A stretch of 32,000 nt of DNA, from contig NC_012803.1 of the NCBI RefSeq assembly GCF_000023205.1, positions 2,280,001 through 2,312,000 on the forward strand, given 5' to 3'. The translations under genes and the position numbers were made by a program. Source of the stretch: Micrococcus luteus NCTC 2665. Its GTDB lineage: Bacteria > Actinomycetota > Actinomycetes > Actinomycetales > Micrococcaceae. Below the pieces are notes generated by a model that did not search any database, was not told the origin of the DNA, and saw only the letters and a program-made list of their open reading frames with translations. This document shows positions 1,874 through 22,594 of the stretch, piece by piece. Within the stretch, counting starts at the first letter, position 1; every line of letters starts with the position of its first letter.

Positions 1874-2305
1874 TCAGCGGCCGTTGACGTCGTCGGCCGT
1901 GGACTGCACGGCCTCGTCCTGCCCCGGCTCGGCCTCGTCCTGCTGGCCCTGCTGTTCCTCGGCCAGGCGGTGGACCTCTGCGATGTCGAGGCCCTTGACC
2001 TGCTCGAGCAGCTGCTCGAGCGCGGTGCCCGGCAGGGCGCCGGCCTGGGAGAACACGAGCACGCCGCCGCGGAAGGCCATGAGCGTGGGGATGGAGGTGA
2101 TGCCGGCCATCGCCGCCAGCTGCTGCTGGTCCTCCGTGTCGACCTTGGCGAACACGACGTCGTCGTGCTTCTCCGAGGCGGCCTCGAACACGGGGGCGAA
2201 CTGGCGGCACGGGCCGCACCAGCCGGCCCAGAAGTCCACGAGCACGGTGTCGTTCTCGGCGACGGTGGAGCCGAACTCCTCGAGGGTCAGGTCCTTGGTG
2301 GCCAC
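1874..2305 (-). CDS. Thioredoxin with an acidic/Gln-rich C-terminal tail
   Basis: WCGPC active site (VLVDFWAGWCGPCRQFAP). GTG start at 2305 preceded by SD gaaagga. The track ORF 1874..3031 is trimmed. Confidence 0.9.
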   Translation of the reverse strand: MATKDLTLEEFGSTVAENDTVLVDFWAGWCGPCRQFAPVFEAASEKHDDVVFAKVDTEDQQQLAAMAGITSIPTLMAFRGGVLVFSQAGALPGTALEQLLEQVKGLDIAEVHRLAEEQQGQQDEAEPGQDEAVQSTADDVNGR

Positions 2306-2327
2306 GGTGGGTCCTTTCGTCAGCGGG

Positions 2328-2347
2328 GCCGACGCGAGCGCGTCGGC
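2328..2347 (-). promoter_or_regulatory. 20-bp perfect palindrome GCCGACGCG-AG-CGCGTCGGC in the predicted thioredoxin 5' leader
   Basis: 9-bp perfect inverted arms, lying between the predicted SigH/SigR-type promoter and the SD. Confidence 0.4.
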
Positions 2348-2364
2348 GATCGTCCTGCCGACCA

Positions 2365-2391
2365 CAACGGACGCCCCGCCGCACCTATTCC
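2365..2391 (-). promoter_or_regulatory. SigH/SigR (ECF, thiol-stress) type promoter GGAAT-N18-GTTG upstream of thioredoxin
   Basis: The minus strand reads GGAAT aggtgcggcggggcgtcc GTTG. This matches the actinobacterial SigR/SigH consensus GGAAT-N18-GTT exactly, and it sits upstream of a thioredoxin, a classic regulon member. Confidence 0.55.
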
Positions 2392-2403
2392 GCCCCACCC
2401 CCG

Positions 2404-2454
2404 CTTTCGTTCGGGAAACGGCGGCGTGTCCCGGCACTTTCGTTCGAGAAACGG
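2404..2454 (+). repeat. Repeat locus A: tandem dimer of the CTTTCGTTCGGGAAACGG family (units 2404-2421 and 2437-2454, period 33)
   Basis: CTTTCGTTCGGGAAACGG and CTTTCGTTCGAGAAACGG. Lies in the divergent trx/aroQ intergenic region, immediately upstream of the trx -35. Confidence 0.85.
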
Positions 2455-2506
2455 GTGCCTTCCACGCACTGTCGTGGCCGAGACGGGCGCCGTCGTCGTC
2501 GCTTCC

Positions 2507-2512
2507 TAGACT
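2507..2512 (+). promoter_or_regulatory. -10 box TAGACT, 6 nt upstream of the aroQ ATG (leaderless promoter)
   Basis: tccTAGACTgaccgcATG. The 10-mer TCCTAGACTG recurs at two other gene starts. Confidence 0.5.
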
Positions 2513-2518
2513 GACCGC

Positions 2519-2971
2519 ATGACCGCCACTCCCGCCCTGCCCCTGCTCGTGATCAACGGCCCCAACCTGAACCTGCTCGGCACCCGCGAGCCCGAGGTCT
2601 ACGGCACGGCCACCCTCGACGACGTCCATGCGCTCACCGAGGCCCGCGCGGCCGAGCACGGGCTGACCGTTGACTTCCGACAGTCCAACCACGAGGGCGA
2701 GCTCATCGACTGGATCCAGGAGGCCCGCACCTCCCACGCGGGCGTCCTCATCAACCCCGCCGCGTACTCGCACACCTCCATCGCGATCCGCGACGCCCTC
2801 GCCGCCGTGGACCGGCCGATCGCCGAGGTGCACATCTCCAACATCCACCGGCGCGAGGCGTTCCGACACCACTCGCACGTCTCCGCCGTCGCCGACGTCG
2901 TGATCGCCGGGGCGGGCGTCCAGGGCTACGCCCTGGCCGTCGACTGGCTCGCCGCGGCTGTGCGCCGCTGA
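2519..2971 (+). CDS. aroQ: 3-dehydroquinate dehydratase, type II
   Basis: [21 protein letters not shown] ... [14 protein letters not shown] ... [16 protein letters not shown] ... [11 protein letters not shown] are hallmark AroQ motifs. Confidence 0.95.
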
Positions 2972-3068
2972 GCGCTGGTCAGACCCCGCCTGGCCGTGCC
3001 TAGGGTCGGTGCTACGAACCGGTGGCCGCATTCAGGCCGCCGGCACCCGACGACGAAGGAGTCACGCC

Positions 3069-3551
3069 ATGGGCACCCAGGATCCCCGCGCCCGTCTGCT
3101 CGAGAGGCTCGCGAAGGTGCACGTCTGCATGCTGACCACCGCTGAGCGGGACGGCACGCTCGTCACCCGCCCGATGGGCCTGCAGCAGGCCGAGGACGGT
3201 GGCACGCTCTGGTTCATGACGCGCTCCACCTCCGACGTCGCCGCGGACGCTCCGCAGCGCCCGGTCAACGTCGCCGTGCAGGACAAGGACTTCTGGGCCT
3301 CCCTCGCGGGCCACGGTCAGCTCGTCCGCGACGACGCCCGCAAGAAGGAGTTCTGGAACCCGGCCACCGAGGCGTTCTTCGGTGAGGGCTCGAGCCCCGA
3401 GGATCCGCAGATCGTGCTCGTGCGCGTGGATGTGCAGACCGCCCAGTTCTGGGAGTCACCGGGCGCGGTGGCCACCGCCGTCGAGATGGTGAAGGCCAAG
3501 GTCACCGGCGGGACCGCCGAGCCGGGCGACAGCGAGACCGTCCGCTTCTGA
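3069..3551 (+). CDS. Pyridoxamine 5'-phosphate oxidase-like / general stress protein 26 family protein
   Basis: ATG 3069 with SD gaaggag. The sequence pattern (CMLTT...DGTLVTRPM...LWFMT...DKDFWASL...VRVDVQTAQFWE) is typical of the PNPOx-like split-barrel family. Confidence 0.75.
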   Translation: MGTQDPRARLLERLAKVHVCMLTTAERDGTLVTRPMGLQQAEDGGTLWFMTRSTSDVAADAPQRPVNVAVQDKDFWASLAGHGQLVRDDARKKEFWNPATEAFFGEGSSPEDPQIVLVRVDVQTAQFWESPGAVATAVEMVKAKVTGGTAEPGDSETVRF

Positions 3552-3566
3552 CGGCGCCTCCCGACG

Positions 3567-3598
3567 CCGGCCCCGCGGCTCCTCCGCGGACGGGCCGG
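3567..3598. terminator. GC-rich hairpin between convergent genes (CCGGCC-CCGCGG-ctcct-CCGCGG-acg-GGCCGG)
   Basis: Inverted repeat seen in the sequence between stop 3551 (+) and stop 3627 (-). There is no U-tract. Confidence 0.35.
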
Positions 3599-3626
3599 TG
3601 AGCGCCGCGCGAGGGGCCTCGGCAGG

Positions 3627-5024
3627 TCAGTCGACGTCCTCGGCCGCCAGCTGGCCGCACGCGCCGTCGATCTCCTTGCCACGGGTGTCGCGCAGGGTGG
3701 TGGGGATGCCGGCGGCGTTGAGCCGGTCCACGAACTCGCGCGTCACGTCCTTCTCCGAGGCGGTCCAGATGGAGCCCGGCGTCGGGTTCAGCGGGATCGG
3801 GTTCACGTGCACCCAGCCCTTGCCCCGGGCGTTGAGCTTCTTGGCCAGCAGGTCGGCGCGCCACGCGTGGTCGTTCATGTCCTTGATGAGCGCGTACTCG
3901 ATGGACACCCGGCGGCCGGTGGCCACGAAGTAGTCGTACGCGGCGTCGATCGCCTCGTCCGCCTTCCAGCGCGAGTTCACGGGGATCAGCTCGTCGCGCA
4001 GCTCGTCGTCCGGCGCGTGCAGGGACAGCGCGAACGTCAGCGGCACGCCCTCCTCGGCCAGCTTCCGGATGGCCGGCACCAGGCCCACGGTGGACAGCGT
4101 GATGTTCCGCGCGGACATGCCCAGGCCCTCGGGCGAGGGGTCCACCATGCGGTGCACGGCGGCCATCACGCGCTTGTAGTTGGCCAGGGGCTCACCCATG
4201 CCCATGAACACGACGTTGGTGACGCGGTCGGCGTCGTGCCCGCCGTCCTTGCGCTTGCCGCCCAGTCCGCCCTGGGCGATCACCTGGTTGGCCAGCACGA
4301 TCTGCTCCACGATCTCCGCCGTGGACATGTTGCGGGTCAGCCCGGCCTGGCCCGTGGCGCAGAACGGGCAGTTCATGCCGCAGCCGGCCTGGCTGGACAC
4401 GCACAGCGTCACGCGGCCGGGGTACCGCATCAGCACGGACTCCACGAGCGCGCCGTCGAACAGCCGCCACAGGAACTTGATGGTGTCCCCGCGGTCGGTC
4501 TCCATGCGCCGTACCTCGGTGAGCAGCGGCGGGAAGAACGCCTCCGCGATCGCCTCCCGCTTGTCCCTGGGCAGGTCCGTCATCTGCTCCGGATCGGTGG
4601 TGTAGTGCTCGAAGTAGTGCACCGAGAGCTGCTTGGCGCGGAACGCCGGCAGCCCGATCTCCTTGGCCTTCTCCTGCCGCTCCTTCAGCGTGAGGTCGGC
4701 CAGGTGGGTGGGCGGCTGGGAGACGCGCGGCTGCTTGAACTGCAGCTGCGGTCGGCCGTCCGGGCCCATCGGCTGGGTCCAGCCCTCGGTCTTCGGCATC
4801 ACCTGGGGGCGCTCGGCGGTGGCGGCCTCGCGGCGCTTGGGCGCGGAGAGCTGGTGGCCGACGCCGGCGCGGCGCATGCGCTCTCGGTCCTCGGCGAGCT
4901 GGCGCGCCTCGGACTCGTCGATCAGGCCGCGCTCGGGGCGGCCGAGGGCCGGCTTGCCGGCGCGGTCCCTCTGGCGGTTCGGGGTGGGCTTCGATCCGGG
5001 GCGGCGGGGCTGGTAGTCAGACAT
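3627..5024 (-). CDS. rlmN: Radical SAM 23S rRNA/tRNA adenine-C2 methyltransferase RlmN, with a long basic N-terminal extension
   Basis: [19 protein letters not shown] is the CxxxCxxC radical-SAM cluster motif, and GMGEPLANY is also present. ATG 5024 has SD gggaga 9 nt upstream. The track ORF 3627..5813 is trimmed. Confidence 0.9.
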
Positions 5025-5889
5025 CGGCACCATTCTCCCAGACGGGGCGGACTTCGCGGCGGGTCGCCTCCACGTCGACGGCGCCGCGCGGATTCCGCGT
5101 CCGGGGCAGCCCCCGCAGGACCCAGCGGACGACGACGCTGCGCACCGTCGCCGGCAGCGGCCGGTACAGGGTGCGCGCCAGCCCCCAGAGGCGTGCCTCC
5201 CGGACGGAGTCCCGCCCAGTCCAGGACCAACCGAGGCCGGCGCGCACGCGGCCTGGGAGGAGACCGGCGGTGACGAACCGGGCCAGGGGCATAGCCGCCC
5301 GCAGCGGCGCGGGGACGCCCTGGCCGGAGAACAGGTCGGCGGCGACCCGCCGCGCGTCGTCCGTGACCTCGAGCCGGGCCACCCGGTCGTCCCAGTAGTC
5401 CGCGAACGCCGCGCGGTCGACCGGCCAGGCGGAGGCGGGGACCTCGAGGCTCGTGGCGAGCGGGGCGTACCCGCGGTAGAGGCGGTCGGCGTCCTCGGCG
5501 TCGAGGGCGCCCCACATCCGGCGGCGCACCTGCTCCCCCATCGCATAGAGGGTGGCGGCCACCCAGAGCTGGGCGTCCGGGTCGGCGGCGTCGTAGGGGT
5601 GGCCTCCGGCGTCGAGCCCGCGGACCGGGCGGTGCGCCGCCCGCACCCGGTCGACGACCGCGTCGCGCAACGGCGCGGCCTCGGGGAGGGTGACCGCGTA
5701 GATGTAGGCGAGCGTGTGGCGGAGCCGGCGCATCGGGTCCTCGGTGAACCGGGAGTGGACGGCGACGCCGGCCCCCACCGGCCGGTGCGCCACCTGGAGC
5801 AGGATCGCCGCACCGGCGCCGGCGAGGATCACGGCCTCGCGGGCGAGGGCGGCCGCGGAGGTCGGGGCGGAGTGGCGGTCGGGGCGCAT
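5017..5889 (-). CDS. DUF2236 / MpaB-family oxygenase-like protein
   Basis: Consistent coding frame. The sequence pattern ([24 protein letters not shown]...) resembles the MpaB/DUF2236 family. The 3' end overlaps the rlmN start by 8 nt. Start ATG 5889 is chosen over 5991. Confidence 0.65.
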
Positions 5890-5935
5890 GGTCCCAGCCT
5901 CGCACCGGGCCGGGCGGAGGGGCAGGGGGCCGAGA

Positions 5936-5951
5936 TGAACGGCGCCGTTCA
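5936..5951. promoter_or_regulatory. Perfect 16-bp palindrome TGAACGGCGCCGTTCA in an AT-enriched divergent intergenic region
   Basis: Seen directly, 47 nt upstream of ATG 5889 (minus strand). Additional GTTCA(C) half-sites occur at about 5958, 6069 (reverse), 6110 and 6121. Confidence 0.4.
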
Positions 5952-6234
5952 GCTTCTGTTCATCTTGCTGTTCGCCTGCCGCTCGTGGCACCTCGATCCG
6001 AAAACCGCATGATTGCGCCGATTTCGCAGCATGCAGGCATGCGCGGCGGAGTGCCTCAGGTCACGTTGGTGAACACGGAGTTGCACCCTGGGAGGGAATC
6101 TGTAAACTTGTTCACAAGCAGTTCACCTAGCGTTTACGGAACGCGAGGTCGGGACTCCACCGAACTCATCACCCGCGGCCCCGCCGCGACGATCCGCCGG
6201 ACTCATGGTCCGGCAACCGAAGGAGGTGCTCACC

Positions 6235-6507
6235 GTGAGCATCAACACGACCAGCCACCACCTGCCCACCGCCCCGAGCCCCCTCATGCAGCGCCACGTG
6301 CTCCAGCGCGTCGAGGAGACCCTCCTCCGCCGCTTCGAGGGCACCGTCACCGCCGAGACCGTCCGCTCGGTCGTCCGCGAGGTCGTCGCCGACCTCAAGC
6401 GCGGCGCCCGCATCACCACCTTCCTGCCGGCCCTTGCCGAGCGCGAGGCCACCCGCCGCCTCCAGGCCGCGACGCCGGCCCACGAGGCCATGGCCGTCGC
6501 CGCCTGA
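6235..6507 (+). CDS. Small stand-alone protein paralogous to the N-terminal domain of the downstream LMW-phosphatase-like protein (three-helix-bundle-type domain)
   Basis: GTG 6235 is preceded by a strong SD gaaggagg. HVLQRVEETLLRRFEGTVTAETVRSVV...FLPALAEREATRRLQA aligns with HVLEREVGPLMARFPGVADEATVRQLL...MLPTTAVQHAASRLRA of the 8197..8964 product. Confidence 0.55.
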   Translation: MSINTTSHHLPTAPSPLMQRHVLQRVEETLLRRFEGTVTAETVRSVVREVVADLKRGARITTFLPALAEREATRRLQAATPAHEAMAVAA

Positions 6508-6586
6508 TCCCTCACATCGACGCGAAGACCCGTCGGCCCGCCCCGCGAGGGGCCGTGGCCGGCGGGTCTTCTCGCCTCCCAGGACG

Positions 6587-6743
6587 CTTTCGTTCGGGAA
6601 ACGGCGGGTGCCAGAACGCTTTCGTTCGGGAAACGGCGTGAACGCTCCGGGGCGCCGTTCCATCGCCGCCCACGCGAATCCGGCGTGCGGCGTCGTTTCC
6701 CACACGAAAGCACCGCGACACGCCGCCGTTTCCCGAACGAAAG
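6587..6743. repeat. Repeat locus B: two forward units (6587-6604, 6619-6636) and two inverted units (6693-6710, 6726-6743) of the CTTTCGTTCGGGAAACGG family
   Basis: The outer units are perfect reverse complements over 21 bp (CTTTCGTTCGGGAAACGGCGG). The locus lies between convergent stops 6507 (+) and 6755 (-). Confidence 0.9.
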
Positions 6744-6754
6744 CGCGGGGGGCC

Positions 6755-7999
6755 TCAGTCCTCGGCGACGCCCAGCGCTCGGCGCATCGGCAGGAACTTG
6801 GCCCGGATCTCCGTGACCTCCTCCTCGGGCACCGCTCCCGGGACCATCCCGCCCCCGGCCTGCAGCCGCACCCCGCCGGGCACCTGCTGGCCACAGCGCA
6901 GCGCCAGGGCGATCTCGCCGTCGCCGTCCTGGTCCAGCCACCCGACCGGCCCGGCGTAGCGGCCGCGGTCCACGGGCTCGACCTCCGCGATCACCCGCAC
7001 CGCGTCCGGCGTGGGGGTCCCGCCGACGGCCGCCGTCGGATGCAGCGCGGCCACCACGTCCAGCACGGTCCCCCGCCCGTCCCGCAGCCGGCCGCGCACG
7101 GACGTGGCCAGGTGGTGCACGTTCGGCAGGGTCAGGACGGTGGGCACGGGGTCGTCGTCGGCAAGGTCGACGACGGGCGCCAGCGCGTCCAGCACCGACC
7201 GCGCGGCCCAGCGGTGCTCCTCCGCCAGCCGCGGATCGGAGGCCAGACGCTCGCGCAGCGCGGCGTCCTCCACCTCGTCCGCGCCGCGCGGCATGGACCC
7301 CGCCAGCACCCGCGAGCCCACGAGCCCCGCGTGCCGCGTGGCGAGGACCTCGGGCGTGGCGCCCAGCAGCCCGCCGACGGCGAACACCCAGGTCTGCGGG
7401 TACTCGCGGCGCAGGGCCCCGATCGCCCGCCACAGGTCGGCGTCGTCCGCGGGGACGGTCATCGTGCGGCTGATCACGACCTTCGCCAGCTCCCCGCCCG
7501 AGTCGGCCATCCGCGTCAGCAGCTCGCGCACCCCGGCCGCGTAGCCGACGTCGTCCCAGGCGCGGTCGGCGACGTCGGCGGGCAGGGGCACCGCACCGTC
7601 GGCCAGCAGCCGGGCTCCGCGGTCCGCGGCGACGGCGGCTGCGAGCGCGTCCGCGTCCACGTGCTGGGCCACGTCCCGCACGCCGGACGGCGTGGCGCGG
7701 CGCAGATCCGCGGGGATGCGCAGGACCGCGGGCTCGGGCGAGTCATCGGCGAAGGTCGAGGAGATCCAGCCCCGCAGCGAGGCCGTCGGGTCCGGTCGCC
7801 CGGCGACGGCGGCCTGCCACAGCGCGGAGAGCCGGCGGAGCCGGTCGGTGCCGTCCAGGAGCACGGTCCAGCCGCCCTCGCCCCGCCACGCGTCGTCCCC
7901 GTGCGCCCACAGCACCGCCCGGGCGAACGGGGGGACGGCGGCCTCGGGGGTCCCGGTCGCGGGGGTGCCGAGGTCCGGGAGCAGGGAGCGGGCAGACAT
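6755..7999 (-). CDS. Isochorismate synthase (chorismate-binding enzyme, MenF/EntC type)
   Basis: C-terminal chorismate-binding signatures: LHPTAAVGGTP, DRGRYAGPVGW, and GGGMVPGAVPEEEVTEIRAKF. The start is ATG 7999 (SD gggagag 10 nt upstream) or ATG 8008. Confidence 0.8.
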   Translation of the reverse strand: MSARSLLPDLGTPATGTPEAAVPPFARAVLWAHGDDAWRGEGGWTVLLDGTDRLRRLSALWQAAVAGRPDPTASLRGWISSTFADDSPEPAVLRIPADLRRATPSGVRDVAQHVDADALAAAVAADRGARLLADGAVPLPADVADRAWDDVGYAAGVRELLTRMADSGGELAKVVISRTMTVPADDADLWRAIGALRREYPQTWVFAVGGLLGATPEVLATRHAGLVGSRVLAGSMPRGADEVEDAALRERLASDPRLAEEHRWAARSVLDALAPVVDLADDDPVPTVLTLPNVHHLATSVRGRLRDGRGTVLDVVAALHPTAAVGGTPTPDAVRVIAEVEPVDRGRYAGPVGWLDQDGDGEIALALRCGQQVPGGVRLQAGGGMVPGAVPEEEVTEIRAKFLPMRRALGVAED

Positions 8000-8196
8000 G
8001 GCCCCCATTCTCTCCCACCTCGGCGGACCCCGCTCCGGGCCCGGGCCTCGGCCGCCGCCCCGACGGCGGGGGCGAGCGGCGTCGTCGTGCGCGGAGGGAT
8101 CCCGTCAAGGCTTGCGCCGGCACACCCGACGTCGCAGGGTGGGGGCACCCGTTCACCTCGCGTTCAACCGACCGCCTTCCCCGGAGGACTCGCACC

Positions 8197-8964
8197 ATGA
8201 CCCCCATCCCCCCGGACCCCCACGCCGATCACGCACCGGCGGTGGACGACATGCCGCTGGACACGACGGCTGCGCCAGACACCCCCGCCGCGGTGGACCC
8301 GGTGCCGCACGGGATGGCCGCGCACGTGCTGGAGCGCGAGGTCGGGCCGCTGATGGCGCGCTTCCCCGGCGTGGCGGACGAGGCGACGGTGCGTCAGCTC
8401 CTGTTCGACTCCTACGCCGAGCTCGCCGCGACGAGCCGCCACCCGGAGATGCTGCCGACCACCGCGGTGCAGCATGCCGCCTCGCGCCTGCGCGCCAGGG
8501 CGATCAACCAGGGCAGCATCGAGTCGCGCCACCCGCGTGTGCTGTTCGTCTGCCACGGCAACGCCGGCCGCTCGCAGATGGCCGCGGCCCTGCTCGAGAA
8601 CCGCACCCACGGCGAGGTCAGGGCCCGCTCGGCCGGCACGGAGCCCGCCGGCGAGGTCATCTCCACCGCGTTCGAGGCGATGAGCGAGATCGGCATCCCG
8701 CTGCACCACACGTACACCAAGGGCCTGGACCCGGACGTGCTCCGGGCCGCCGAGATCGTGGTGCTCTTCGACGGCGTGGATCAGTTCGAGATCCCCGAGG
8801 GCGCGCAGGTGCAGAAGTGGTCCGTGCCGTCGATCCGCGGCATGAGCCTCGAGCAGGTGCGCGGCGTGCGCGACGCCCTGGACCTGCAGGTCCGCGGTCT
8901 GATCGCCGATCTGGGGGAAGCCCCCGCCGCCCCGCTGCCGAGCGCGGACACCCGCGCCGACTGA
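8197..8964 (+). CDS. Two-domain protein: N-terminal three-helix-type domain plus LMW phosphatase / ArsC-like domain
   Basis: P-loop VLFVCHGNAGRSQMAAALL (C-X5-R-S). ATG 8197 has SD ggagga. Only one Cys occurs in the whole protein. Confidence 0.8.
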   Translation: MTPIPPDPHADHAPAVDDMPLDTTAAPDTPAAVDPVPHGMAAHVLEREVGPLMARFPGVADEATVRQLLFDSYAELAATSRHPEMLPTTAVQHAASRLRARAINQGSIESRHPRVLFVCHGNAGRSQMAAALLENRTHGEVRARSAGTEPAGEVISTAFEAMSEIGIPLHHTYTKGLDPDVLRAAEIVVLFDGVDQFEIPEGAQVQKWSVPSIRGMSLEQVRGVRDALDLQVRGLIADLGEAPAAPLPSADTRAD

Positions 8965-8968
8965 CCCC

Positions 8969-8997
8969 TTGACCCATACCCCCCTGGGGTATAGAAC
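8969..8997 (+). promoter_or_regulatory. csoR promoter: -35 TTGACC (8969-8974), 17-nt spacer, -10 TAGAAC (8992-8997), 7 nt to ATG 9005
   Basis: Canonical spacing read directly from the 40-nt intergenic gap. It implies a leaderless or near-leaderless csoR mRNA. Confidence 0.5.
8976..8992. promoter_or_regulatory. CsoR-type operator ATACCCC-cct-GGGGTAT
   Basis: 7-bp perfect inverted arms of the GC-rich TACCC..GGGTA type known for CsoR operators. It is located in the -35/-10 spacer of csoR. A further GGGGTAT half-site at 9000-9006 overlaps the ATG. Confidence 0.7.
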
Positions 8998-9004
8998 AGG
9001 GGGT

Positions 9005-9385
9005 ATGAGCACGGACAGCACGACGACGGCGCCCGCCGCCGCCTCGCCCCTTCCGTCCGCCGCGGCGGACGCCTGCGACGGCCACCGGCCCCCGCACGAG
9101 GTCCACCGGGACAAGGCCAAGCACCTGGCGCGACTGCGCCGCATCGAGGGGCAGGTGCGCGGCCTCCACCGCATGGTGGACGAGGACGTGTACTGCATCG
9201 ACGTCCTCACGCAGATCGCCGCCGTCACGAAGGCGCTGCAGTCCCTCAGCCTGAACCTCACCTCGGAGCACCTGCGTCACTGCGTGGCCGAGGCCGCGGT
9301 GCAGGCCGAGGCGGAAGGCCGCACCGAGCTCATCGACGAGAAGGTCGCCGAGGCGACGGCCGCCCTCGGCCGCCTGCTGCGCTGA
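9005..9385 (+). CDS. csoR: Copper-sensing transcriptional repressor, CsoR family
   Basis: CsoR/DUF156 pattern HLARLRRIEGQVRGLHRMVDEDVYCIDVLTQIAAV...EHLRHCV, giving the C-H-C copper ligand set. The TTG at 8969 used by the track is rejected in favour of ATG 9005. Confidence 0.85.
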   Translation: MSTDSTTTAPAAASPLPSAAADACDGHRPPHEVHRDKAKHLARLRRIEGQVRGLHRMVDEDVYCIDVLTQIAAVTKALQSLSLNLTSEHLRHCVAEAAVQAEAEGRTELIDEKVAEATAALGRLLR

Positions 9386-9424
9386 CCGGCGCCGTCGCTC
9401 CCCCCACCCCGACAGGAGTTCGAG

Positions 9425-9643
9425 ATGACCACCACCGACCTGAAGATCACCGGCATGACCTGCGGCCACTGCGTCGCCTCCGTCCGGGAGGAGCTCGGCG
9501 AGATCGCCGGCGTCTCCGCCGTGGACGTGGACCTGAACGCCGGGGGCGTGTCCACCGCCACCGTCACCTCCGAGGGCCCCCTCGACCCCGCCGCCGCGCG
9601 CGCCGCCGTCGAGGAGGCCGGCTACACGCTGGTGGAGGCCTGA
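9425..9643 (+). CDS. copZ: Copper chaperone CopZ (HMA domain)
   Basis: 72 aa with GMTCGHC metal-binding motif. SD aggag. Confidence 0.9.
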   Translation: MTTTDLKITGMTCGHCVASVREELGEIAGVSAVDVDLNAGGVSTATVTSEGPLDPAAARAAVEEAGYTLVEA

Positions 9644-9647
9644 CCCC

Positions 9648-12107
9648 ATGACCCACCCCGCCTCCTCCACCCCGGCCGGCCCGCCGGCCGGGACCACCCG
9701 CCGCGTCGACCTGGACGTCACCGGCATGACCTGCGCCTCGTGCGTGGGCCGCGTCGAGCGCAAGCTGGGCAAGCTCGAGGGCGTCACGGCGTCCGTGAAC
9801 CTGCCGCTCGAGCAGGCCACCGTCACCGCGCCCGCCGGCGTCTCGGACGAGGAGCTCGTGGCCGCCGTCGAGAAGGCCGGGTACGGCGCCACCGTGCGCC
9901 GTCCCGCCCCGCCGGCCGGACACGCCGGACACGCCGGGCACGCGCACACCTCCGAGCACGGCGAGGAGCATGCCGCGGACCATGACGGCGTGGACCACCA
10001 CGACCACATGGCCCACGGTCCGAGTGAGGACATGCTCAAGCCGCGCCTGATCGGCGCGGCGGTGCTGACGGTGCCGCTCGTGCTGATCTCCATGGTCCCG
10101 GCGCTGCAGTTCCCGCACTGGGGCTGGGTCGCGTTCGCCCTGGCGGCGCCCGTGGCGCTGTGGGCGGCGTGGCCGTTCCACTCGGCGGCGTTCCGCGCGG
10201 CCCGGCACGGCTCGTCCACGATGGACACCCTCGTGTCCCTGGGCGTGCTCGTCTCCTTCTCCTTCTCGGCCGTGGAGCTGATCCTGGCGCCGGACATGAC
10301 CGCCCACGTGGGCGGGACCATGGCGGAGATGGCCCACCACAGCCTGTACTTCGAGGCGGCCGCGGTCATCACCACGTTCCTGCTGCTGGGCCGCTGGCTC
10401 GAGGCCCGCGCCAAGCGTGAGGCCGGCGCCGCACTGCGGGCCCTCCTGGACCTGGGCGCGGCCCAGGCCACCCTCTACGACCCCGAGACCCACGACGAGC
10501 GCACGGTGCCCGCCGAGTCCCTCGCGCCGGGCGACGTCGTGCTGATCCGCCCCGGCGAGAAGGTGCCCACGGACGCCGAGGTGCTCGAGGGCACCTCGGC
10601 CGTGGACGCCTCCCTGCTCACCGGCGAGTCCGTGCCCGTGGAGGTCGGCCCCGGGGACGCCCTCACCGGCGCCACCCTGAACACCTCGGGCCGGCTCGTG
10701 GCCCGCGCGACGCGGGTCGGCTCGGACACGACGCTCGCCCAGATGGGACGGCTCGTCTCCGAGGCGCAGACCGGCAAGGCCCGCGTGGCCCGGCTGGCCG
10801 ACCGCATCTCCGCCGTGTTCGTGCCGATCGTGCTCGGGATCGCCGTGCTGACCTTCGCGGTGTGGATGCTGGTGACCGGCGACCTGCCGTCCGCGCTGCG
10901 CGCCGGCGTGGCCGTGCTCGTGATCGCGTGCCCGTGCGCCCTCGGTCTGGCGACCCCGGTCGGCCTGCTGGCCGGCACCGGCCGCGCCGCGCAGCTGGGC
11001 ATCCTCATCCGCGGCCCCGAGGTGCTCGAGGACTCGCGCACCGTGGACACGATCGTGCTGGACAAGACCGGCACCGTGACCGAGGGCCGCATGGCGCTGG
11101 CGGACGTGCTCGTCCTCGACCCCGCTTTCGTGGCCGAAACGGGCGCCTCCCGGAGCGCTTTCGTTGACGAAACGGCGCCGGACCAGGCCGCCGACGTCCT
11201 GCTGACCCTGGCGGCCGCCGTCGAGCGCGGGTCCGAGCACCCGATCGCCCGCGCGATCGTGGCCGGCGCCGAGGAGCGCGGCCTGACCGTGCCCGGCGTG
11301 GCGGACTTCGCCTCCACGGCCGGCGGCGGCGTGTCCGGGCTGGTCGCCCTCCCCCACGACGACGGCGCCCTCGGCTCCGGCGCGCACGGCGCCGCCGGCC
11401 CGGATCCGGTCCGCGTGGCCGTCGGCCGCGGCTCCGTCCTCGAGACCGCCCTCGACGGCGGCATCCTCGCCGAGCACCGGGCCGCGTTCGAGGCCGCGGA
11501 GCAGGCCGGCGCCACAGCCGTGTGGGTCGCGGTCGGCGGCCGCGTGGCGGGCGTCCTGTCCGTCCGGGACACCGTGAAGGACACCTCCGCCGACGCGATC
11601 GCCCGCCTGCGGCAGATGGGCCTGCGCCCGCTGCTGGTGACCGGCGACAACGCCGCCGTCGCCGCCCAGGTGGCGGAGGCCGTCGGGATCCCGGCCGCGG
11701 ACGTGGTGTCCGGCGTGCGCCCCGAGGACAAGGTGGACGTGGTGACGCGCCTGCAGTCCGAGGGCGCCGTGGTGGCCATGGTGGGCGACGGCGTCAACGA
11801 CGCCCCGGCGCTCGCCGCGGCGGACATGGGCATCGCCATGGGCTCGGGGACGGACGTGGCCCGCGAGGCCGCGCAGATCACCGTGATGGGCGACGACCTG
11901 CACCAGGTGGTCCAGGCGCTCGACCTGAGCCGCCGCACCCTGGGGATCATCCGGATGAACCTGTTCTGGGCGTTCCTCTACAACGTGCTCGGCATCCCGG
12001 TCGCGGCCCTGGGCCTGCTCAACCCGATGATCGCCGGCGGCGCGATGGCGGCCTCGAGCGTGCTCGTGGTGCTGAACTCGCTGCGGCTCACCCGCTACGC
12101 GCGCTGA
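9648..12107 (+). CDS. copA: Copper-translocating P1B-type ATPase
   Basis: N-terminal HMA GMTCASC, TM6 CPCALGLATP, phosphorylation site DKTGTVT, and hinge GDGVNDAPAL. It follows csoR-copZ. Confidence 0.95.
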   Translation: MTHPASSTPAGPPAGTTRRVDLDVTGMTCASCVGRVERKLGKLEGVTASVNLPLEQATVTAPAGVSDEELVAAVEKAGYGATVRRPAPPAGHAGHAGHAHTSEHGEEHAADHDGVDHHDHMAHGPSEDMLKPRLIGAAVLTVPLVLISMVPALQFPHWGWVAFALAAPVALWAAWPFHSAAFRAARHGSSTMDTLVSLGVLVSFSFSAVELILAPDMTAHVGGTMAEMAHHSLYFEAAAVITTFLLLGRWLEARAKREAGAALRALLDLGAAQATLYDPETHDERTVPAESLAPGDVVLIRPGEKVPTDAEVLEGTSAVDASLLTGESVPVEVGPGDALTGATLNTSGRLVARATRVGSDTTLAQMGRLVSEAQTGKARVARLADRISAVFVPIVLGIAVLTFAVWMLVTGDLPSALRAGVAVLVIACPCALGLATPVGLLAGTGRAAQLGILIRGPEVLEDSRTVDTIVLDKTGTVTEGRMALADVLVLDPAFVAETGASRSAFVDETAPDQAADVLLTLAAAVERGSEHPIARAIVAGAEERGLTVPGVADFASTAGGGVSGLVALPHDDGALGSGAHGAAGPDPVRVAVGRGSVLETALDGGILAEHRAAFEAAEQAGATAVWVAVGGRVAGVLSVRDTVKDTSADAIARLRQMGLRPLLVTGDNAAVAAQVAEAVGIPAADVVSGVRPEDKVDVVTRLQSEGAVVAMVGDGVNDAPALAAADMGIAMGSGTDVAREAAQITVMGDDLHQVVQALDLSRRTLGIIRMNLFWAFLYNVLGIPVAALGLLNPMIAGGAMAASSVLVVLNSLRLTRYAR
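11125..11175 (+). repeat. Repeat locus C: tandem dimer of the CTTTCG..GAAACGG family inside the copA coding sequence (units 11125-11142 and 11158-11175, period 33)
   Basis: CTTTCGTGGCCGAAACGG matches the intergenic consensus at 14/18 positions and CTTTCGTTGACGAAACGG at 15/18. The 33-bp phasing is the same. The units translate in frame as AFVAETGA..AFVDETAP. Confidence 0.75.
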
Positions 12108-12122
12108 GCCGGGGCGGGGCGC

Positions 12123-12143
12123 GGGCCGGGTCCACCCCGGCCC
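12123..12143. terminator. GC hairpin GGGCCGGG-tccac-CCCGGCCC between convergent copA and the DUF4259 gene
   Basis: 8-bp perfect stem with a 5-nt loop. The flanks extend the pairing towards both stop codons. Confidence 0.45.
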
Positions 12144-12153
12144 GGCCGGCCGG

Positions 12154-12567
12154 TCAGGGCAGGCATTCGCGGGAGTACTCGAGCCACTGCTCGAGCTCCC
12201 CGGACTCCTCCCAGAGCTGGTAGAGCTCGGAGCAGGAGGGCTCGCGGATGACCACGCCGATCAGCTCGCGCAGGGTCTCGATGTCCTCGTCCGAGAACTG
12301 GTCGATGAAGGCGGTGAGGTCCACCTCGTCCGTCTCCGCGTGCTCGAGCAGGGCCTCGAGGTCCGCGTGGTCCTCGTTCCGGGCGATCCGCACGAGCGCC
12401 CCGAGGGTGAGGAGTGCGGCGCCCTGGCTCGCGGTCAGGTAGCCCTCGTCCTCGTCGCGACGGAAGTTCCTGCGGAACTCGTCCAGGTCGAAGGTGCCGT
12501 CGAGGACCTCGTCCACGATGTCCAGCGCGGTGTCGTTCTGGAAGACGTTTCTGCCCCATGCACCCAT
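12154..12567 (-). CDS. DUF4259-family protein
   Basis: The N-terminus MGAWGRNVFQNDTALDIV matches the characteristic MGxWG..F.ND.A.D start of DUF4259. The protein is acidic. Confidence 0.7.
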   Translation of the reverse strand: MGAWGRNVFQNDTALDIVDEVLDGTFDLDEFRRNFRRDEDEGYLTASQGAALLTLGALVRIARNEDHADLEALLEHAETDEVDLTAFIDQFSDEDIETLRELIGVVIREPSCSELYQLWEESGELEQWLEYSRECLP

Positions 12568-12573
12568 GACCTG

Positions 12574-12579
12574 ACCCTA
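12574..12579 (-). promoter_or_regulatory. -10 box TAGGGT, 6 nt upstream of ATG 12567 (leaderless promoter)
   Basis: The minus strand reads ccTAGGGTcaggtcATG. Confidence 0.5.
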
Positions 12580-12665
12580 GGCCCGGGGCGGGCCCCCGGC
12601 AAGAGTCCTGTGGTGTCCCGCCGAGGGGTGCCGTCGCCTCCGCTTCCGGTGTCCGCGGCGGTTCC

Positions 12666-12671
12666 TAGACT
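12666..12671 (+). promoter_or_regulatory. -10 box TAGACT, 7 nt upstream of ATG 12679 (leaderless promoter)
   Basis: tccTAGACTgggcggcATG. It shares the 10-mer TCCTAGACTG with aroQ and the 26773 gene. Confidence 0.5.
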
Positions 12672-12678
12672 GGGCGGC

Positions 12679-13233
12679 ATGAGCACCGAGCCGACCCCCT
12701 CGTCCGCCGCCCCCGAGACCGAGCCCGCCGCGCCGTCGTCGTCCGGGCTGCCGCAGGCCGCCCCGCAGGCGGCGTGGCCCGAGCGCGTGGAGACCGGCGA
12801 GCACCAGGTGTCCTACCGGGTCACCGTGGCCGCGCCGGCGCACGAGCTGTGGGCGATGCTCGCGGACCCGCACCGCCATCACGAGGCGGACGGGTCCGGG
12901 ACCGTGCGGCCGAAGGTGAGCGGGCCGCACCGGCTGGCCGTGGGCGACCGGTTCCGCGTGGCCATGCGGAAGTACGGGGTGCCGTACACGATGCCGCTGA
13001 CCGCCACCGCCGTGGACGAGGACGAGCTCGTGGAGTGGGCCCACCCGGGCGGACATCGGTGGCGCTGGGCGTTCCGAGACAACGGGGACGGCACCACCGA
13101 GGTCACCGAGACCTTCGACTACTCGTGGGCCCGGCCGGCCGTGCGCCGCGCGTACGAGCTGCTGCGGGTGCCGGCGGACAACGGGCGGGGCATCCAGTCG
13201 AGCCTCACGCGGCTGGCGGGCCGCCACCTCTGA
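12679..13233 (+). CDS. SRPBCC (polyketide cyclase/dehydrase-like) family protein with a Pro/Ser/Ala-rich N-terminus
   Basis: Size and pattern (YRVTVAAPAHELWAMLADP...GDRF...EWAH...W.W.F...GDGTTEVTETFDYS) are typical of SRPBCC ligand-binding proteins. The track ORF is trimmed to ATG 12679. Confidence 0.7.
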   Translation: MSTEPTPSSAAPETEPAAPSSSGLPQAAPQAAWPERVETGEHQVSYRVTVAAPAHELWAMLADPHRHHEADGSGTVRPKVSGPHRLAVGDRFRVAMRKYGVPYTMPLTATAVDEDELVEWAHPGGHRWRWAFRDNGDGTTEVTETFDYSWARPAVRRAYELLRVPADNGRGIQSSLTRLAGRHL

Positions 13234-13251
13234 ACCGACCGCGTCTCCGCA

Positions 13252-13362
13252 CTTTCGTTCGGGAAACGGCGGCGTGTCGGGCACTTTCGTTCGGGAAACG
13301 GCGGCCCTCACGCCGTTTCTCGAACGAAAACGCGCTGGGGACCGCCGTTTCCCGAACGAAAG
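13252..13362. repeat. Repeat locus D: two forward units (13252-13269, 13284-13301) and two inverted units (13313-13330, 13345-13362) of the CTTTCGTTCGGGAAACGG family
   Basis: Both forward units are identical to the consensus. The inverted units read CCGTTTCTCGAACGAAAA and CCGTTTCCCGAACGAAAG. The locus lies between convergent stops 13233 (+) and 13378 (-). Confidence 0.9.
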
Positions 13363-13377
13363 CGGGGGGTGCGGGGG

Positions 13378-13695
13378 TCAGACGGCGGACCAGTGGGTCG
13401 CGGCCGGCAGCTGCGCCAGGTGCGGGGTGACGAGCGCACGCCACGCGAGGAACGAGTCGGACTCGCGGAAGGCCACGGTGTGGTCCTCGAGCGTGCGCCA
13501 GCCGATCAGCAGCCGGTAGCGCGCCGGGTCCTCCACCTGCCGGGACAGCGCGAAGGACGTCGCGCCCCCGTCCCGGAACAGCGGCTCGGCCTCGGCGACG
13601 GCGGCCTCGAACGCCGCCTCCGCCCCCGCGGCCACGTGCAGCTCCACCGACTCGACGACCGGCCCGGCCGTCGTCGCGTCCTGCCCGACGCTCAT
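13378..13695 (-). CDS. Antibiotic-biosynthesis-monooxygenase (ABM) domain protein
   Basis: 105 aa with a ferredoxin-like ABM pattern (VELHVAAGAEAAFEAAV..A.PLF....G..S..L.R..EDP.RY.LLI.W.TLEDH). The start overlaps the upstream stop (ATGA). Confidence 0.7.
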   Translation of the reverse strand: MSVGQDATTAGPVVESVELHVAAGAEAAFEAAVAEAEPLFRDGGATSFALSRQVEDPARYRLLIGWRTLEDHTVAFRESDSFLAWRALVTPHLAQLPAATHWSAV

Positions 13696-14132
13696 GCGTG
13701 CACCCGCGGGCTCGTGGAGTGGCCGGTGAACCAGGCGACGAGCTGGCCGTCCGCCTCGATGCCGACCTCGATCATGCGGTCGCGACCGAACTCCACCGAC
13801 TGGCGGGCGGTCGCCACGAGGTGCGCGCCGAGCCTGGCGGGCGCCACGTAGGTGATCTCGGCGCGCCGGGTGACGGGCGCGGCACCGAAGGTCGCCACGC
13901 AGTACGCCAGCGCCGAGTCCGCAAGGTGGAACAGGAAGCCGCCGTGGCAGATCTCGTGCGAGTTCACCATGTCCGCGGTGACCTCGCGGTGCAGCACCAC
14001 GCGCCCCTCGGCCACCTCGCCGAGGGTGACGCCGTGCTCGCGCACCGCGGGGTCGTTCGCGTAGATCTCCTCGAGGCGGGCGAGGATCTCGTCCCGGCTC
14101 TGGCCGGACGAGCTCTGGGGAGTCTCAGTCAT
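13692..14132 (-). CDS. PaaI-type hotdog-fold acyl-CoA thioesterase
   Basis: NSHEICHGGFLFHLADSALAYC is the PaaI/YdiI-type motif. The track ORF 13692..15005 is trimmed to ATG 14132. Confidence 0.8.
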   Translation of the reverse strand: MTETPQSSSGQSRDEILARLEEIYANDPAVREHGVTLGEVAEGRVVLHREVTADMVNSHEICHGGFLFHLADSALAYCVATFGAAPVTRRAEITYVAPARLGAHLVATARQSVEFGRDRMIEVGIEADGQLVAWFTGHSTSPRVHA

Positions 14133-22427: not shown

Positions 22428-22582
22428 GGAGGTCTCCTGTGCTGGTTCGGGGGCCCCTCCGGCCCCGTGGGTGCACCCCGCCGCGCAGACGGGGTCCGTG
22501 GGGGTCAGGGTACTGGACGGGGCGGCGCCGGAGGCGACCCGATACGCGGCGTGAAGCCGGTGACGGGAGGGCGGGCCCGCCG

Positions 22583-22588
22583 TACGAT
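22583..22588 (+). promoter_or_regulatory. -10 box TACGAT, 6 nt upstream of ATG 22595 (leaderless promoter)
   Basis: cgTACGATttccccATG. Confidence 0.5.
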
Positions 22589-22594
22589 TTCCCC

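What the first reader, a model, noticed from the sequence alone, without database searches (positions are those of the whole stretch)
11120..11185. In-frame copy of the repeat dimer inside the copA coding sequence
Two units lie 33 bp apart within copA. CTTTCGTGGCCGAAACGG matches the intergenic consensus at 14/18 positions and CTTTCGTTGACGAAACGG at 15/18. They sit just after the DKTGT phosphorylation motif and before the conserved AAAVE.GSEHP segment of the nucleotide-binding domain.

Two units of 33 bp make 66 bp, or 22 codons, so the frame is preserved. The units are read as the peptide repeat AFVAETGA-SRS-AFVDETAP. The same frame through intergenic copies gives AFVRETAA/TFVRETGA.

CopA proteins I know have only a short linker here, so this looks like a domesticated or tolerated repeat insertion in an essential-domain loop of a P-type ATPase. 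The substitutions in the two units improve the TTTCG-N4-CGAAA hairpin.
Basis: partly seen in the sequence, partly recalled or inferred. Interest (0 to 1): 0.75.

Follow-up and report, generated by a model that had tools for sequence, protein, structure and literature searches.

The report
Interspersed repeat embedded in-frame in copA
A short DNA repeat that normally sits just after genes in Micrococcus lies twice, in frame, inside the copper-pump gene copA, adding a 22-residue loop whose copy number differs between strains; this is a new example of a known phenomenon, repeat DNA tolerated inside proteins.

Summary
Two 33-bp units at 11122-11187 match the window's intergenic repeat CTTTCGTTCGGGAAACGG at 14/18 and 15/18 positions. 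They lie 33 bp apart, in frame, between DKTGT and SEHP of a Micrococcus luteus-type CopA.

Chance is excluded. About 1e-6 such dimers are expected per window. The match also exceeds what the peptide requires (0 of 200,000 synonymous resamplings), and 5 of copA's 18 A/T-ending codons fall in these 21 codons.

The segment is an insertion. DKTGT-to-SEHP spans 41 residues in most other Micrococcaceae homologues but 61 here. Solved CopA structures show a 21-residue gap at this point.

It occurs across Micrococcus sensu stricto at the same loop, with 1-7 units. Within M. luteus, sampled strains carry 2 or 3 units in 16 haplotypes. A second gene, rlmC, carries the same repeat in another frame, also in variable number.

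The insert has no significant RNA structure. Its "hairpin-improving" centres are variants already present in intergenic arrays.

Best reading: a tolerated coding minisatellite in a permissive N-domain loop, comparable to Rickettsia palindromic elements and MIRU-VNTRs. The family seems undescribed. Intergenic arrays abut stop codons in sense orientation, which is unexplained.

The parts
9648..12107 (+). copA, a P1B-type copper ATPase of 819 aa and the host gene. It is the last gene of a csoR (8969-9385), copZ (9425-9643), copA operon.
   Evidence: ORF and translation show GMTCASC, CPC, DKTGT, SEHP and GDGVNDAP. It is 93-97% identical to M. luteus heavy-metal P-type ATPases with Pfam HMA, E1-E2_ATPase and Hydrolase. 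The same csoR-copZ-copA synteny is seen in L066-L071.
11061..11075 (+). DKTGT phosphorylation motif, the upstream anchor of the variable segment.
11122..11154 (+). Repeat unit 1 (33 bp, core 11125-11142, CTTTCGTGGCCGAAACGG, 14/18 to consensus). It reads (P)AFVAETGASRS.
   Evidence: The closest copy elsewhere in the window is the intergenic unit at 2467-2491 (22/25).
11155..11187 (+). Repeat unit 2 (33 bp, core 11158-11175, CTTTCGTTGACGAAACGG, 15/18 to consensus). It reads (S)AFVDETAPDQ.
   Evidence: The same TGAC-type centre occurs in intergenic units of other Micrococcus genomes (L018 6820, L041 2622/3257/3323, L052 312).
11124..11189 (+). The 22 inserted codons (CopA residues 493-514) in the loop between the first N-domain strand and first N-domain helix.
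   Evidence: 21-residue gap against 3RFU and 3J08. 61 aa against 41 aa from DKTGT to SEHP. AlphaFold shows a short helix at 492-498 and coil at 499-510, with pLDDT 72 and 49. 5 of 21 codons end in A/T.
11232..11243 (+). SEHP motif of the N-domain, the downstream anchor.
2404..2491 (+). Intergenic array of three direct units (cores at 2404, 2437 and 2470). The third has the GTGGCC centre also seen in copA unit 1.
6587..6743 (.). Intergenic composite of two forward units (6587, 6619) and two reverse units (6693, 6726). It lies between convergent genes 6205-6507 (+) and 6755-8008 (-).
   Evidence: It folds into a long hairpin (MFE -104 kcal/mol, z = -6.9).
13252..13362 (.). Intergenic composite of two forward units (13252, 13284) and two reverse units (13313, 13345). 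It lies between a + gene ending at 13233 and the - gene 13378-13695.
   Evidence: It folds into a long hairpin (MFE -86 kcal/mol, z = -9.5). The same array at the orthologous site in L066, L067 and L069 has a different unit number.

Best explanation
The 66 bp at 11124-11189 are two units of a Micrococcus-specific interspersed repeat lying inside copA in the sense orientation. The repeat has a conserved core of about 22 bp and a variable spacer of about 11 bp, giving a 32-33 bp period.

Why the gene survives (shown):
- The unit is 33 bp, or 11 codons.
- The 18-nt core has no stop codon in any of the six frames.
- The reading frame is therefore preserved, and CopA gains 22 residues.

Where the extra residues sit (shown by alignment, modelled by AlphaFold): they form a low-confidence excursion in the loop between the first strand and the first helix of the nucleotide-binding domain. 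This loop also varies in length in relatives that lack the repeat.

Inferred history:
- The array entered this loop at or near the base of Micrococcus sensu stricto.
- Since then it has behaved as a coding minisatellite. Units are gained and lost by slippage or unequal recombination. They drift or decay towards GC-ending codons in some lineages. They are re-homogenised against the genome's other copies, or re-inserted, in others.

Inferred function: the insert most likely does not contribute to copper transport. It is tolerated because the loop is permissive.
For: Membership in the family:
- Sequence, 33-bp spacing and frame.
- Chance and peptide-driven similarity excluded.
- Compositional signature of foreign AT-rich codons.
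- copA unit 1 has a 22/25 match to the terminal unit of the intergenic array at 2467-2491, and unit 2's centre recurs in intergenic arrays elsewhere.

Insertion rather than ancestral linker:
- 41 aa in most outgroup homologues against 50-107 aa in 24 of 26 sequences of the Micrococcus clade.
- 21-residue gap against 3RFU and 3J08.
- On a tree built with the segment masked, all unit-bearing CopAs form one clade.

Minisatellite behaviour:
- L066 has an exact 33-bp tandem duplicate of unit 1 relative to the window.
- 43 M. luteus-group CopAs give 16 haplotypes of this segment, 34 with 2 units and 9 with 3, while the flanks are invariant.
- Other species carry 1-7 units, always with a 33-bp period, and forward units always in the same frame.
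- Decayed, GC-shifted relics occur in M. antarcticus (L070) and L072.
- Intergenic arrays at orthologous sites also differ in unit number between strains.

Permissive site and lack of structure:
- pLDDT of 49-72 in the insert against about 90 in the flanks.
- The loop is also lengthened, without repeat units, in several outgroups (48-57 aa).
- No excess RNA stability in the insert (z = -0.4).

Generality: Micrococcus RlmC-like methyltransferases carry 1-4 in-frame units of the same repeat, read in another frame (ALSFEKRxxPx), before the NPPRRG motif. Citricoccus and other outgroups lack them.
Against: - Purely neutral decay since one ancient insertion does not fit all the data. Rare codons GCT, GTT and GAA persist in species whose CopA is only 68-77% identical.
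- The copA units of M. lylae and MAG SUG2227 carry their own species' spacer variants (11/12 and 10-11/12 tail matches, against 8 or fewer to other species). This requires gene conversion, re-insertion or nucleotide-level selection. None of these was demonstrated.
- Two members of the clade (P0021 with 44 aa, P0027 with 41 aa) lack units, so either loss or more than one gain must be invoked.
- No target-site duplication could be identified.
- No transposase or other mobilising function is known for this family.
- No functional data exist for the insert.
- The 7-unit allele comes from a metagenome-assembled genome.
Confidence: 0.8

Rival explanations
1. The units inside copA are kept because they work at the DNA or RNA level, like the intergenic copies. 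They might be a binding site for the factor that recognises the family, or an internal pause, processing or attenuation site in the cop transcript. On this view the encoded peptide is a by-product.
For: - The flanking half-sites GCTTTCG and GAAACGG are intact in both units, and rare AT-ending codons are retained against 98% GC3.
- Near-consensus units persist in copA of distant species (L068, L069).
- Intergenic arrays are strongly orientation-biased: at least 17 arrays lie 1-22 nt after a stop codon, all in sense orientation. The copA and rlmC units are also in sense orientation.
Against: - Units decay freely in some strains and species. In L067, unit 1 is GCCTTCGTCACCGACACGG. L070 and L072 show GC-shifted relics.
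- The segment is highly polymorphic within M. luteus.
- The insert has no significant secondary structure.
- No terminator-like or promoter-like site is found there.
- No Rfam family matches anywhere in the window.
Confidence: 0.1
2. The insert has been domesticated as a protein feature. It would be a flexible acidic linker that tunes movement between the N- and P-domains or an interaction of CopA, and extra loop length would be under selection.
For: - Almost all Micrococcus sensu stricto CopAs keep extra length at this loop (50-107 aa against 41).
- The consensus Arg (AFVRET) is replaced by Ala, Asp or Thr in M. luteus alleles.
- AlphaFold predicts a short helix for unit 1 (residues 492-498).
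Against: - Length (1-7 units), sequence and even reading orientation (SRFSNES in SUG2227) vary widely.
- There are 16 haplotypes within one species.
- Model confidence is low.
- The insert holds no His, Cys or Met residues of the kind that bind copper.
- Two clade members have 41-44 aa.
Confidence: 0.08
3. The similarity is coincidental, or the 22 residues are an ancestral linker and peptide repeat unrelated to the intergenic family.
For: A family HMM scores the single units only weakly (E = 0.34 and 0.94).
Against: - About 1e-6 dimers are expected per window.
- 0 of 200,000 synonymous resamplings reach the observed match.
- Outgroups have 41 aa with no such peptide.
- The same family sits in frame in rlmC.
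- Variant centres are shared with intergenic units.
Confidence: 0.01

Closest known systems
Rickettsia palindromic elements (RPE; Ogata et al. 2000, as summarised in PMC3184786 and PMC10969869)
   Same: Both are interspersed repeat families whose copies lie in frame inside unrelated housekeeping genes without disrupting them. Both add a peptide segment at a structurally permissive place. Both are found in more than one gene (here copA and rlmC).
   Different: RPEs are about 105-150 bp single palindromic elements in reduced genomes of intracellular alphaproteobacteria. Here the unit is 33 bp, occurs in tandem arrays of variable number, and lives in a free-living actinobacterium with 74% G+C. 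The copA copy is not palindromic and shows no excess folding. No sequence relationship is expected, and none was tested.
Mycobacterial interspersed repetitive units, MIRU-VNTR (Supply et al. 1997, as summarised in PMC3184786)
   Same: Both are actinobacterial minisatellite-like families. Both occur as short tandem units with open reading frames and strain-to-strain copy-number variation, at many loci, closely apposed to gene ends.
   Different: MIRUs are 40-100 bp and lie mainly between genes of operons, overlapping stop and start codons. Here the units are 32-33 bp, the arrays lie mostly just after stop codons of convergent genes, often with an inverted partner array, and one lies inside a catalytic domain.
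SPRITE, and REP/BIME-type elements at gene 3' ends (Croucher et al. 2011, as summarised in PMC3184786)
   Same: This comparison concerns the intergenic family. It is concentrated at the 3' ends of genes, mostly convergent pairs (20 of 24 classifiable intergenic clusters). The composite ++/-- arrays fold into long hairpins (z = -7 to -9.5).
   Different: No U-tract terminator signature is present. Single units fold weakly. The arrays are direct repeats with a helical-phase period rather than single palindromes. No association with a RAYT transposase could be examined.
Intragenic ERIC and other small mobile sequences of enterobacteria (Delihas 2007, cited in PMC3184786 and PMC10969869)
   Same: [quoted passage not shown]
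   Different: They differ in taxa, sequence and size (ERIC is about 127 bp). They are not tandem and not copy-number variable within the gene.

Membership tests
P1B-type (CopA-like) copper ATPase (host gene) | N-terminal HMA domain with CxxC, a CPC motif in the membrane, DKTGT, SEHP, and the GDGxNDxP hinge. | tested here: met
   GMTCASC, IACPCALG, DKTGT, GSEHP and GDGVNDAP are present in the translation. Pfam HMA, E1-E2_ATPase and Hydrolase are recorded on close homologues. E = 4e-33 to LpCopA 3RFU. csoR-copZ-copA synteny is conserved.
Micrococcus 33-bp interspersed repeat (the family defined in this window) | Core close to GC(G/A)CTTTCGTTCG(G/A)GAAACGG. | tested here: met
   14/18 and 15/18 matches to the 18-mer. 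GCTTTCG and GAAACGG are intact in both units. The variant centres are also found in intergenic members. A single-unit HMM score is weak.
Micrococcus 33-bp interspersed repeat (the family defined in this window) | Tandem arrangement with a 32-33 bp period and variable unit number. | tested here: met
   The copA units lie 33 bp apart. M. luteus alleles carry 2 or 3 units, and other species carry 1-7. Intergenic arrays have 1-3 units at 32-33 bp spacing.
Micrococcus 33-bp interspersed repeat (the family defined in this window) | Restricted to Micrococcus, with multiple loci per genome. | tested here: met
   Clustered exact matches occur only in Micrococcus records, plus tiny contigs that are probably contaminants. 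Singletons elsewhere number about what chance predicts (roughly 35 for an 18-mer in 596 Gb). 60 units were collected from 16 Micrococcus loci. Genome-wide copy number could not be obtained.
RPE-like in-frame repeat insertion | A member of an interspersed family lies inside a conserved gene with the frame preserved, and orthologues outside the clade lack it. | tested here: met
   Shown for copA and for rlmC.
RPE-like in-frame repeat insertion | The element is palindromic and forms a stable hairpin. | tested here: not met
   The copA insert folds at -25.9 kcal/mol against -24.6 +/- 3.2 for shuffles (z = -0.4). Only composite forward-plus-reverse arrays fold strongly: the intergenic ones, and the SUG2227 copA allele at z = -3.6.
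RPE-like in-frame repeat insertion | The insertion lies at the protein surface, away from catalytic residues. | tested here: inconclusive
   The insert is a low-confidence loop between strand 478-489 and helix 511-526. It aligns to a loop gap in 3RFU and 3J08. Solvent exposure and distance to the ATP site were not computed.
MITE | [quoted passage not shown] | tested here: inconclusive
   Empty sites (M. terreus L071 and outgroups) and filled sites were compared. Composite ++/-- arrays have inverted halves. No target-site duplication is recognisable at copA. A GACC found 66 bp apart is equally explained by unit periodicity.
REP/REPIN | A short imperfect palindrome mobilised by a RAYT transposase. 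| not testable with these tools
   The single unit is only weakly self-complementary (-3.7 kcal/mol; pair counts). No whole Micrococcus genome was available to look for a RAYT gene flanked by units.
MIRU-type VNTR / minisatellite | Tandem units whose number differs between strains of one species. | tested here: met
   2 or 3 units occur in M. luteus copA, including an exact 33-bp duplication in L066. The orthologous intergenic arrays read ++-- in the window against +++-- and ++--- in L066.
Intrinsic terminator / SPRITE-like element (intergenic copies) | A G+C-rich hairpin followed by a U-tract at gene 3' ends. | tested here: not met
   The 3'-end location is met. No hairpin-plus-T-run site is found at any array in 2000-14000.

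The most novel reading that the evidence does not exclude
The 33-bp family may be an active, transcription-oriented element of Micrococcus, not a set of dead relics.

- It is placed or kept in sense orientation within about 20 nt of stop codons.
- It is kept homogeneous within each species, even where it lies inside coding sequence. The copA copies of M. lylae and SUG2227 match their own genome's variant.
- Its 11-codon, stop-free design lets it colonise protein loops repeatedly.

This would imply an unknown mobilisation or gene-conversion mechanism, or a sequence-specific DNA- or RNA-binding partner. It would give an RPE-like "selfish DNA in proteins" system in a culturable, genetically tractable, free-living actinobacterium.
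Probability: 0.25. Interest if true: 0.7.

Novelty: new member of a known kind. Interest (0 to 1): 0.5.

Why it matters
In-frame colonisation of proteins by repeat DNA is documented mainly for Rickettsia (RPEs) and a few other repeat families. This case shows the process in a free-living, high-G+C actinobacterium.

- It occurs inside the catalytic nucleotide-binding domain of a copper pump.
- It has strain-level copy-number polymorphism (2 or 3 units).
- It has a second, independent host gene (rlmC).

Three uses follow:
1. It gives a natural series of loop-length variants (0 to 7 units) for studying how a P-type ATPase tolerates insertions.
2. It offers a possible typing marker for M. luteus strains.
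3. It is an entry point to an apparently undescribed repeat family whose strict sense orientation next to stop codons suggests a role, or an insertion mechanism, tied to transcription.

For annotation, it explains why Micrococcus CopA and RlmC lengths vary in 11-residue steps.

Tried and rejected
- **Rfam:** the whole window gave no family at gathering threshold.
- **Family HMM:** nhmmer with 60 units detects the intergenic units at E of about 1e-7 to 1e-9, apart from the diverged unit at 6693 (E = 0.049). The copA units appear only as weak partial hits (E = 0.34, 0.94, 18). No further diverged copies were found elsewhere in the window.
- **RNA structure in the insert:** rejected. The insert has z = -0.4, and a wider context has z = -0.38.
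- **Conserved single-unit hairpin:** two registers (TTTC/GAAA and CGTT/AACG extended) each pair in 71-75% of cells, against about 50-69% for slid controls. Changes are mostly one-sided, and only the SUG2227 lineage extends the stem. Inconclusive.
- **Canonical terminators or promoters at the arrays:** none.
- **Plasmid or phage origin of the repeat:** no blastn match in PLSDB or INPHARED.
- **L041 4747/4780:** my ORF filter flagged these as coding. The units lie upstream of the likely start (MTTHQ...) of a permease, so they are not an in-frame insertion.
- **Exact look-up of P0016:** failed. Its DNA was recovered from L045 instead.
- **Literature:** searches for the sequence and for Micrococcus repeats found nothing relevant. 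The 2010 M. luteus genome paper is not held.
- **Genome-wide copy number:** the single genome-contig scan returned only one stretch for the M. luteus representative, despite 4 clusters in this 32-kb window. No census is possible.
- **Species-specific affinity of the M. luteus copA units:** none was seen. They resemble the genus-level consensus spacer, unlike the M. lylae and SUG2227 units.
Full report
**1. The observation**

The window is a 74% G+C actinobacterial segment. The ORF at 9648-12107 encodes an 819-aa P1B-type ATPase that is 93-97% identical to Micrococcus luteus heavy-metal ATPases. It follows csoR (8969-9385) and copZ (9425-9643).

At 11122-11187 the sequence reads GCTTTCGTGGCCGAAACGG-GCGCCTCCCGGAGC-GCTTTCGTTGACGAAACGG. 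The two 18-nt cores differ from the intergenic consensus CTTTCGTTCGGGAAACGG at 4 and 3 positions. They lie 33 bp apart in the copA frame and read AFVAETGASRS-AFVDETAPDQA.

The same consensus occurs in three intergenic arrays in the window:
- 2404/2437/2470, all forward.
- 6587/6619 forward with 6693/6726 reverse.
- 13252/13284 forward with 13313/13345 reverse.

**2. Chance is excluded**

- TTTCG-N4-CGAAA occurs nowhere else in 32 kb and never in shuffles.
- A first-order Markov null gives 0.013 hits with 3 or fewer mismatches per window, and about 1e-6 dimers at the observed spacing.
- The nucleotide match goes beyond what the peptide requires. With AFVAET...AFVDET held fixed and codons redrawn from the window's own usage, 12.8 +/- 0.9 mismatches are expected. 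Seven are observed, and none of 200,000 resamplings reached that.
- copA has 98% GC3. Five of its 18 A/T-ending codons, and all four of its runs of 3 or more A/T, lie in these 21 codons (Fisher p = 4.6e-5).

**3. It is an insertion**

Among the 120 best homologues, DKTGT-to-SEHP spans 41 residues in most Arthrobacter, Citricoccus, Zhihengliuella and related sequences, and 42 in M. terreus. It spans 61 residues here. phmmer alignments to the solved structures LpCopA 3RFU and AfCopA 3J08 open a 21-residue gap exactly at the two units.

An AlphaFold model (43-sequence alignment, mean pLDDT 77) places residues 493-514 between strand 478-489 and helix 511-526. The insert forms a short helix (492-498) and then coil. 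Block pLDDT is 72 and 49, against about 90 for the flanks. From established knowledge of CopA structures, this is the loop joining the first strand and the first helix of the nucleotide-binding domain. It lies upstream of the ATP-contacting E...SEHP segment.

**4. It is genus-wide and copy-number variable**

I recovered orthologous csoR-copZ-copA loci and read the DNA.

| Source | Locus | Units in copA |
|---|---|---|
| M. luteus strains | L066, L067 | 3 (L066 has an exact 33-bp duplicate of unit 1) |
| M. lacusdianchii | L069 | 2 (1 and 5 mismatches) |
| M. lylae | L068 | 2 (3 and 2 mismatches) |
| MAG SUG2227 | L045 | 4 forward plus 3 reverse, read TSRFSNES; 107 aa from DKTGT to SEHP |
| M. 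antarcticus | L070 | GC-shifted relics |
| Unnamed contig | L072 | GC-shifted relic |
| M. terreus | L071 | none |

All forward units share one frame and a 33-bp period.

Among 43 M. luteus-group proteins there are 16 haplotypes of this segment. Thirty-four have 2 units and nine have 3 units, while the flanks are invariant. The window carries the commonest haplotype.

On a neighbour-joining tree built with the segment masked, all unit-bearing CopAs form one clade. Twenty-four of its 26 members are expanded. P0021 (44 aa) and P0027 (41 aa) are not.

**5. A second host gene**

In MAG SUG2227 an RlmC-like 23S rRNA methyltransferase (L031 6546-7946) contains two sense-oriented units 33 bp apart. 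They are read in another frame (ALSFEKRELPQ-ALPCEKREVPD) just before VVVNPPRRG. Homologues from other Micrococcus carry 1, 2, 3 or 4 such units (for example P0127, P0122, P0124 and P0153). Citricoccus and more distant genera have none. In-frame residence is therefore a property of the family, not a peculiarity of copA.

**6. The hairpin claim fails**

- The insert is no more stable than dinucleotide shuffles (z = -0.4). Single units fold at -3.7 and -4.6 kcal/mol, against -3.7 for the consensus.
- The variant centres are not copA-specific. GTGGCC occurs in the terminal unit of the intergenic array at 2467-2491, matching copA unit 1 at 22/25. This is the best match anywhere else in the window.
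- TGAC-type centres occur in intergenic units of M. lylae (L018 6820), L052 and SUG2227 (L041).

**7. What the family looks like**

Sixty intergenic units from 16 Micrococcus loci give a conserved core, GC(G/A)CTTTCGTTCG(G/A)GAAAC(G/C)G, followed by a spacer that differs by species.

Exact copies cluster only in Micrococcus records. Singletons elsewhere match the chance expectation for an 18-mer in 596 Gb. None is found on plasmids or phages, and none matches Rfam.

Of the 24 intergenic clusters that could be classified by flanking genes, 20 lie between convergent genes, 3 between tandem genes and 1 between divergent genes. Forward arrays start 1-22 nt after the stop codon of a forward gene, and reverse arrays abut the stop of a reverse gene. 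At least 17 arrays are in sense orientation to the gene they follow. The source gene calls for L066 and L069 agree.

Forward-plus-reverse composites fold into long hairpins (z = -9.5 and -6.9). There is no U-tract terminator signature. Single-unit pairing is weak and shows no clear covariation. Array length differs between strains at orthologous sites.

**8. Mechanism**

Shown:
- The units belong to the family.
- They were added to an ancestral 41-residue segment.
- The frame is preserved because the unit is 11 codons and the core is stop-free in all six frames.
- The number of units changes by whole-unit steps.

Inferred:
- One early insertion at the base of Micrococcus sensu stricto.
- Later slippage or unequal recombination, decay under GC pressure in some lineages, and loss in two.
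- No contribution to copper transport, judged from variability and low model confidence.

Not resolved: the copA units of M. lylae and SUG2227 match their own species' spacer variants, and rare codons persist across deep splits. Pure neutral decay is therefore insufficient. Gene conversion with other copies, re-insertion at the same loop, or nucleotide-level constraint must act.

**9. Comparison with known systems**

Two reviews (PMC3184786, PMC10969869) document in-frame fusion of repeat elements with genes. The clearest case is the Rickettsia palindromic elements. [quoted passage not shown]

This case resembles an RPE in being an in-frame, tolerated insertion, and resembles a MIRU-VNTR in its tandem, variable units. 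It is not a member of either. The unit is 33 bp, the copA copy is not palindromic, and the taxon and sequence differ.

I found no description of this Micrococcus family in the searchable literature. That library is incomplete.

**10. Verdict**

It is a new member of a known kind. The intergenic family's strict sense orientation next to stop codons is the most intriguing open point.

Noticed in passing
L031 6546-7946 (+), units at 7662-7727; proteins P0121-P0153: An RlmC-like 23S rRNA methyltransferase of Micrococcus carries 1-4 in-frame units of the same repeat, read as ALSFEKRxxPx, between GDAT and PDxVVVNPPRRG. Citricoccus and other outgroups lack them.
   Followed up: yes
window 6587-6743 and 13252-13362; L001-L069 Micrococcus loci: Intergenic arrays sit 1-22 nt after stop codons, in sense orientation to the gene they follow, mostly between convergent genes. 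Forward-plus-reverse composites form long hairpins (z = -7 to -9.5) but have no U-tract. Unit number differs between strains at orthologous sites.
   Followed up: partly
L045 5346-5666 (MAG Micrococcus sp. SUG2227 copA): This allele has four forward (VDETGG-type) and three reverse (TSRFSNES) units in frame. It spans 107 aa from DKTGT to SEHP, and its mRNA could fold on itself (z = -3.6). It comes from a metagenome assembly and needs confirmation.
   Followed up: partly
window 9915-9943 (CopA residues about 88-123): A 9-bp tandem repeat (GCCGGACAC, 3.2 copies) encodes AGHAGHAGHA within a His-rich linker between the HMA domain and the first membrane helix. pLDDT there is below 50. It is a possible extra metal-binding stretch.
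   Followed up: no
window 11363-11450 (CopA residues about 573-600): A second low-confidence, Gly/Ala-rich expansion of the N-domain overlaps imperfect 15- and 27-bp tandem repeats. It is absent from 3RFU and 3J08 in the alignment. It is unrelated to the 33-bp family.
   Followed up: no
window 22439-23383 (+), especially 23265-23380: This ORF has a CGNR-type zinc-finger-like region (C..C....C..C.NR) and ends in a Lys/Glu-rich tail (KEKKERKKAEKKAEKKARKKAEKKSGKKKSDKKKD). The tail is encoded by AAG-rich 12-36-bp tandem repeats, which is unusual for this G+C content.
   Followed up: no
L005, L013, L015, L053 (Carideicomes alvinocaridis, 350-550 bp scaffolds); L043, L063 (Streptomyces sp. NPDC0521xx, 1.5-2.2 kb contigs): Tiny contigs in non-Micrococcus assemblies carry typical 33-bp dimers at 69-76% G+C. 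They are probably Micrococcus contamination of those assemblies.
   Followed up: no
L007 (CP179711.1, M. luteus MAW843): The collection scan found only one stretch with an exact 18-mer in this complete M. luteus genome. The 32-kb window has four clusters, and L066 and L067 have two per 10 kb. Either the scan is incomplete or strains differ greatly in repeat load.
   Followed up: no
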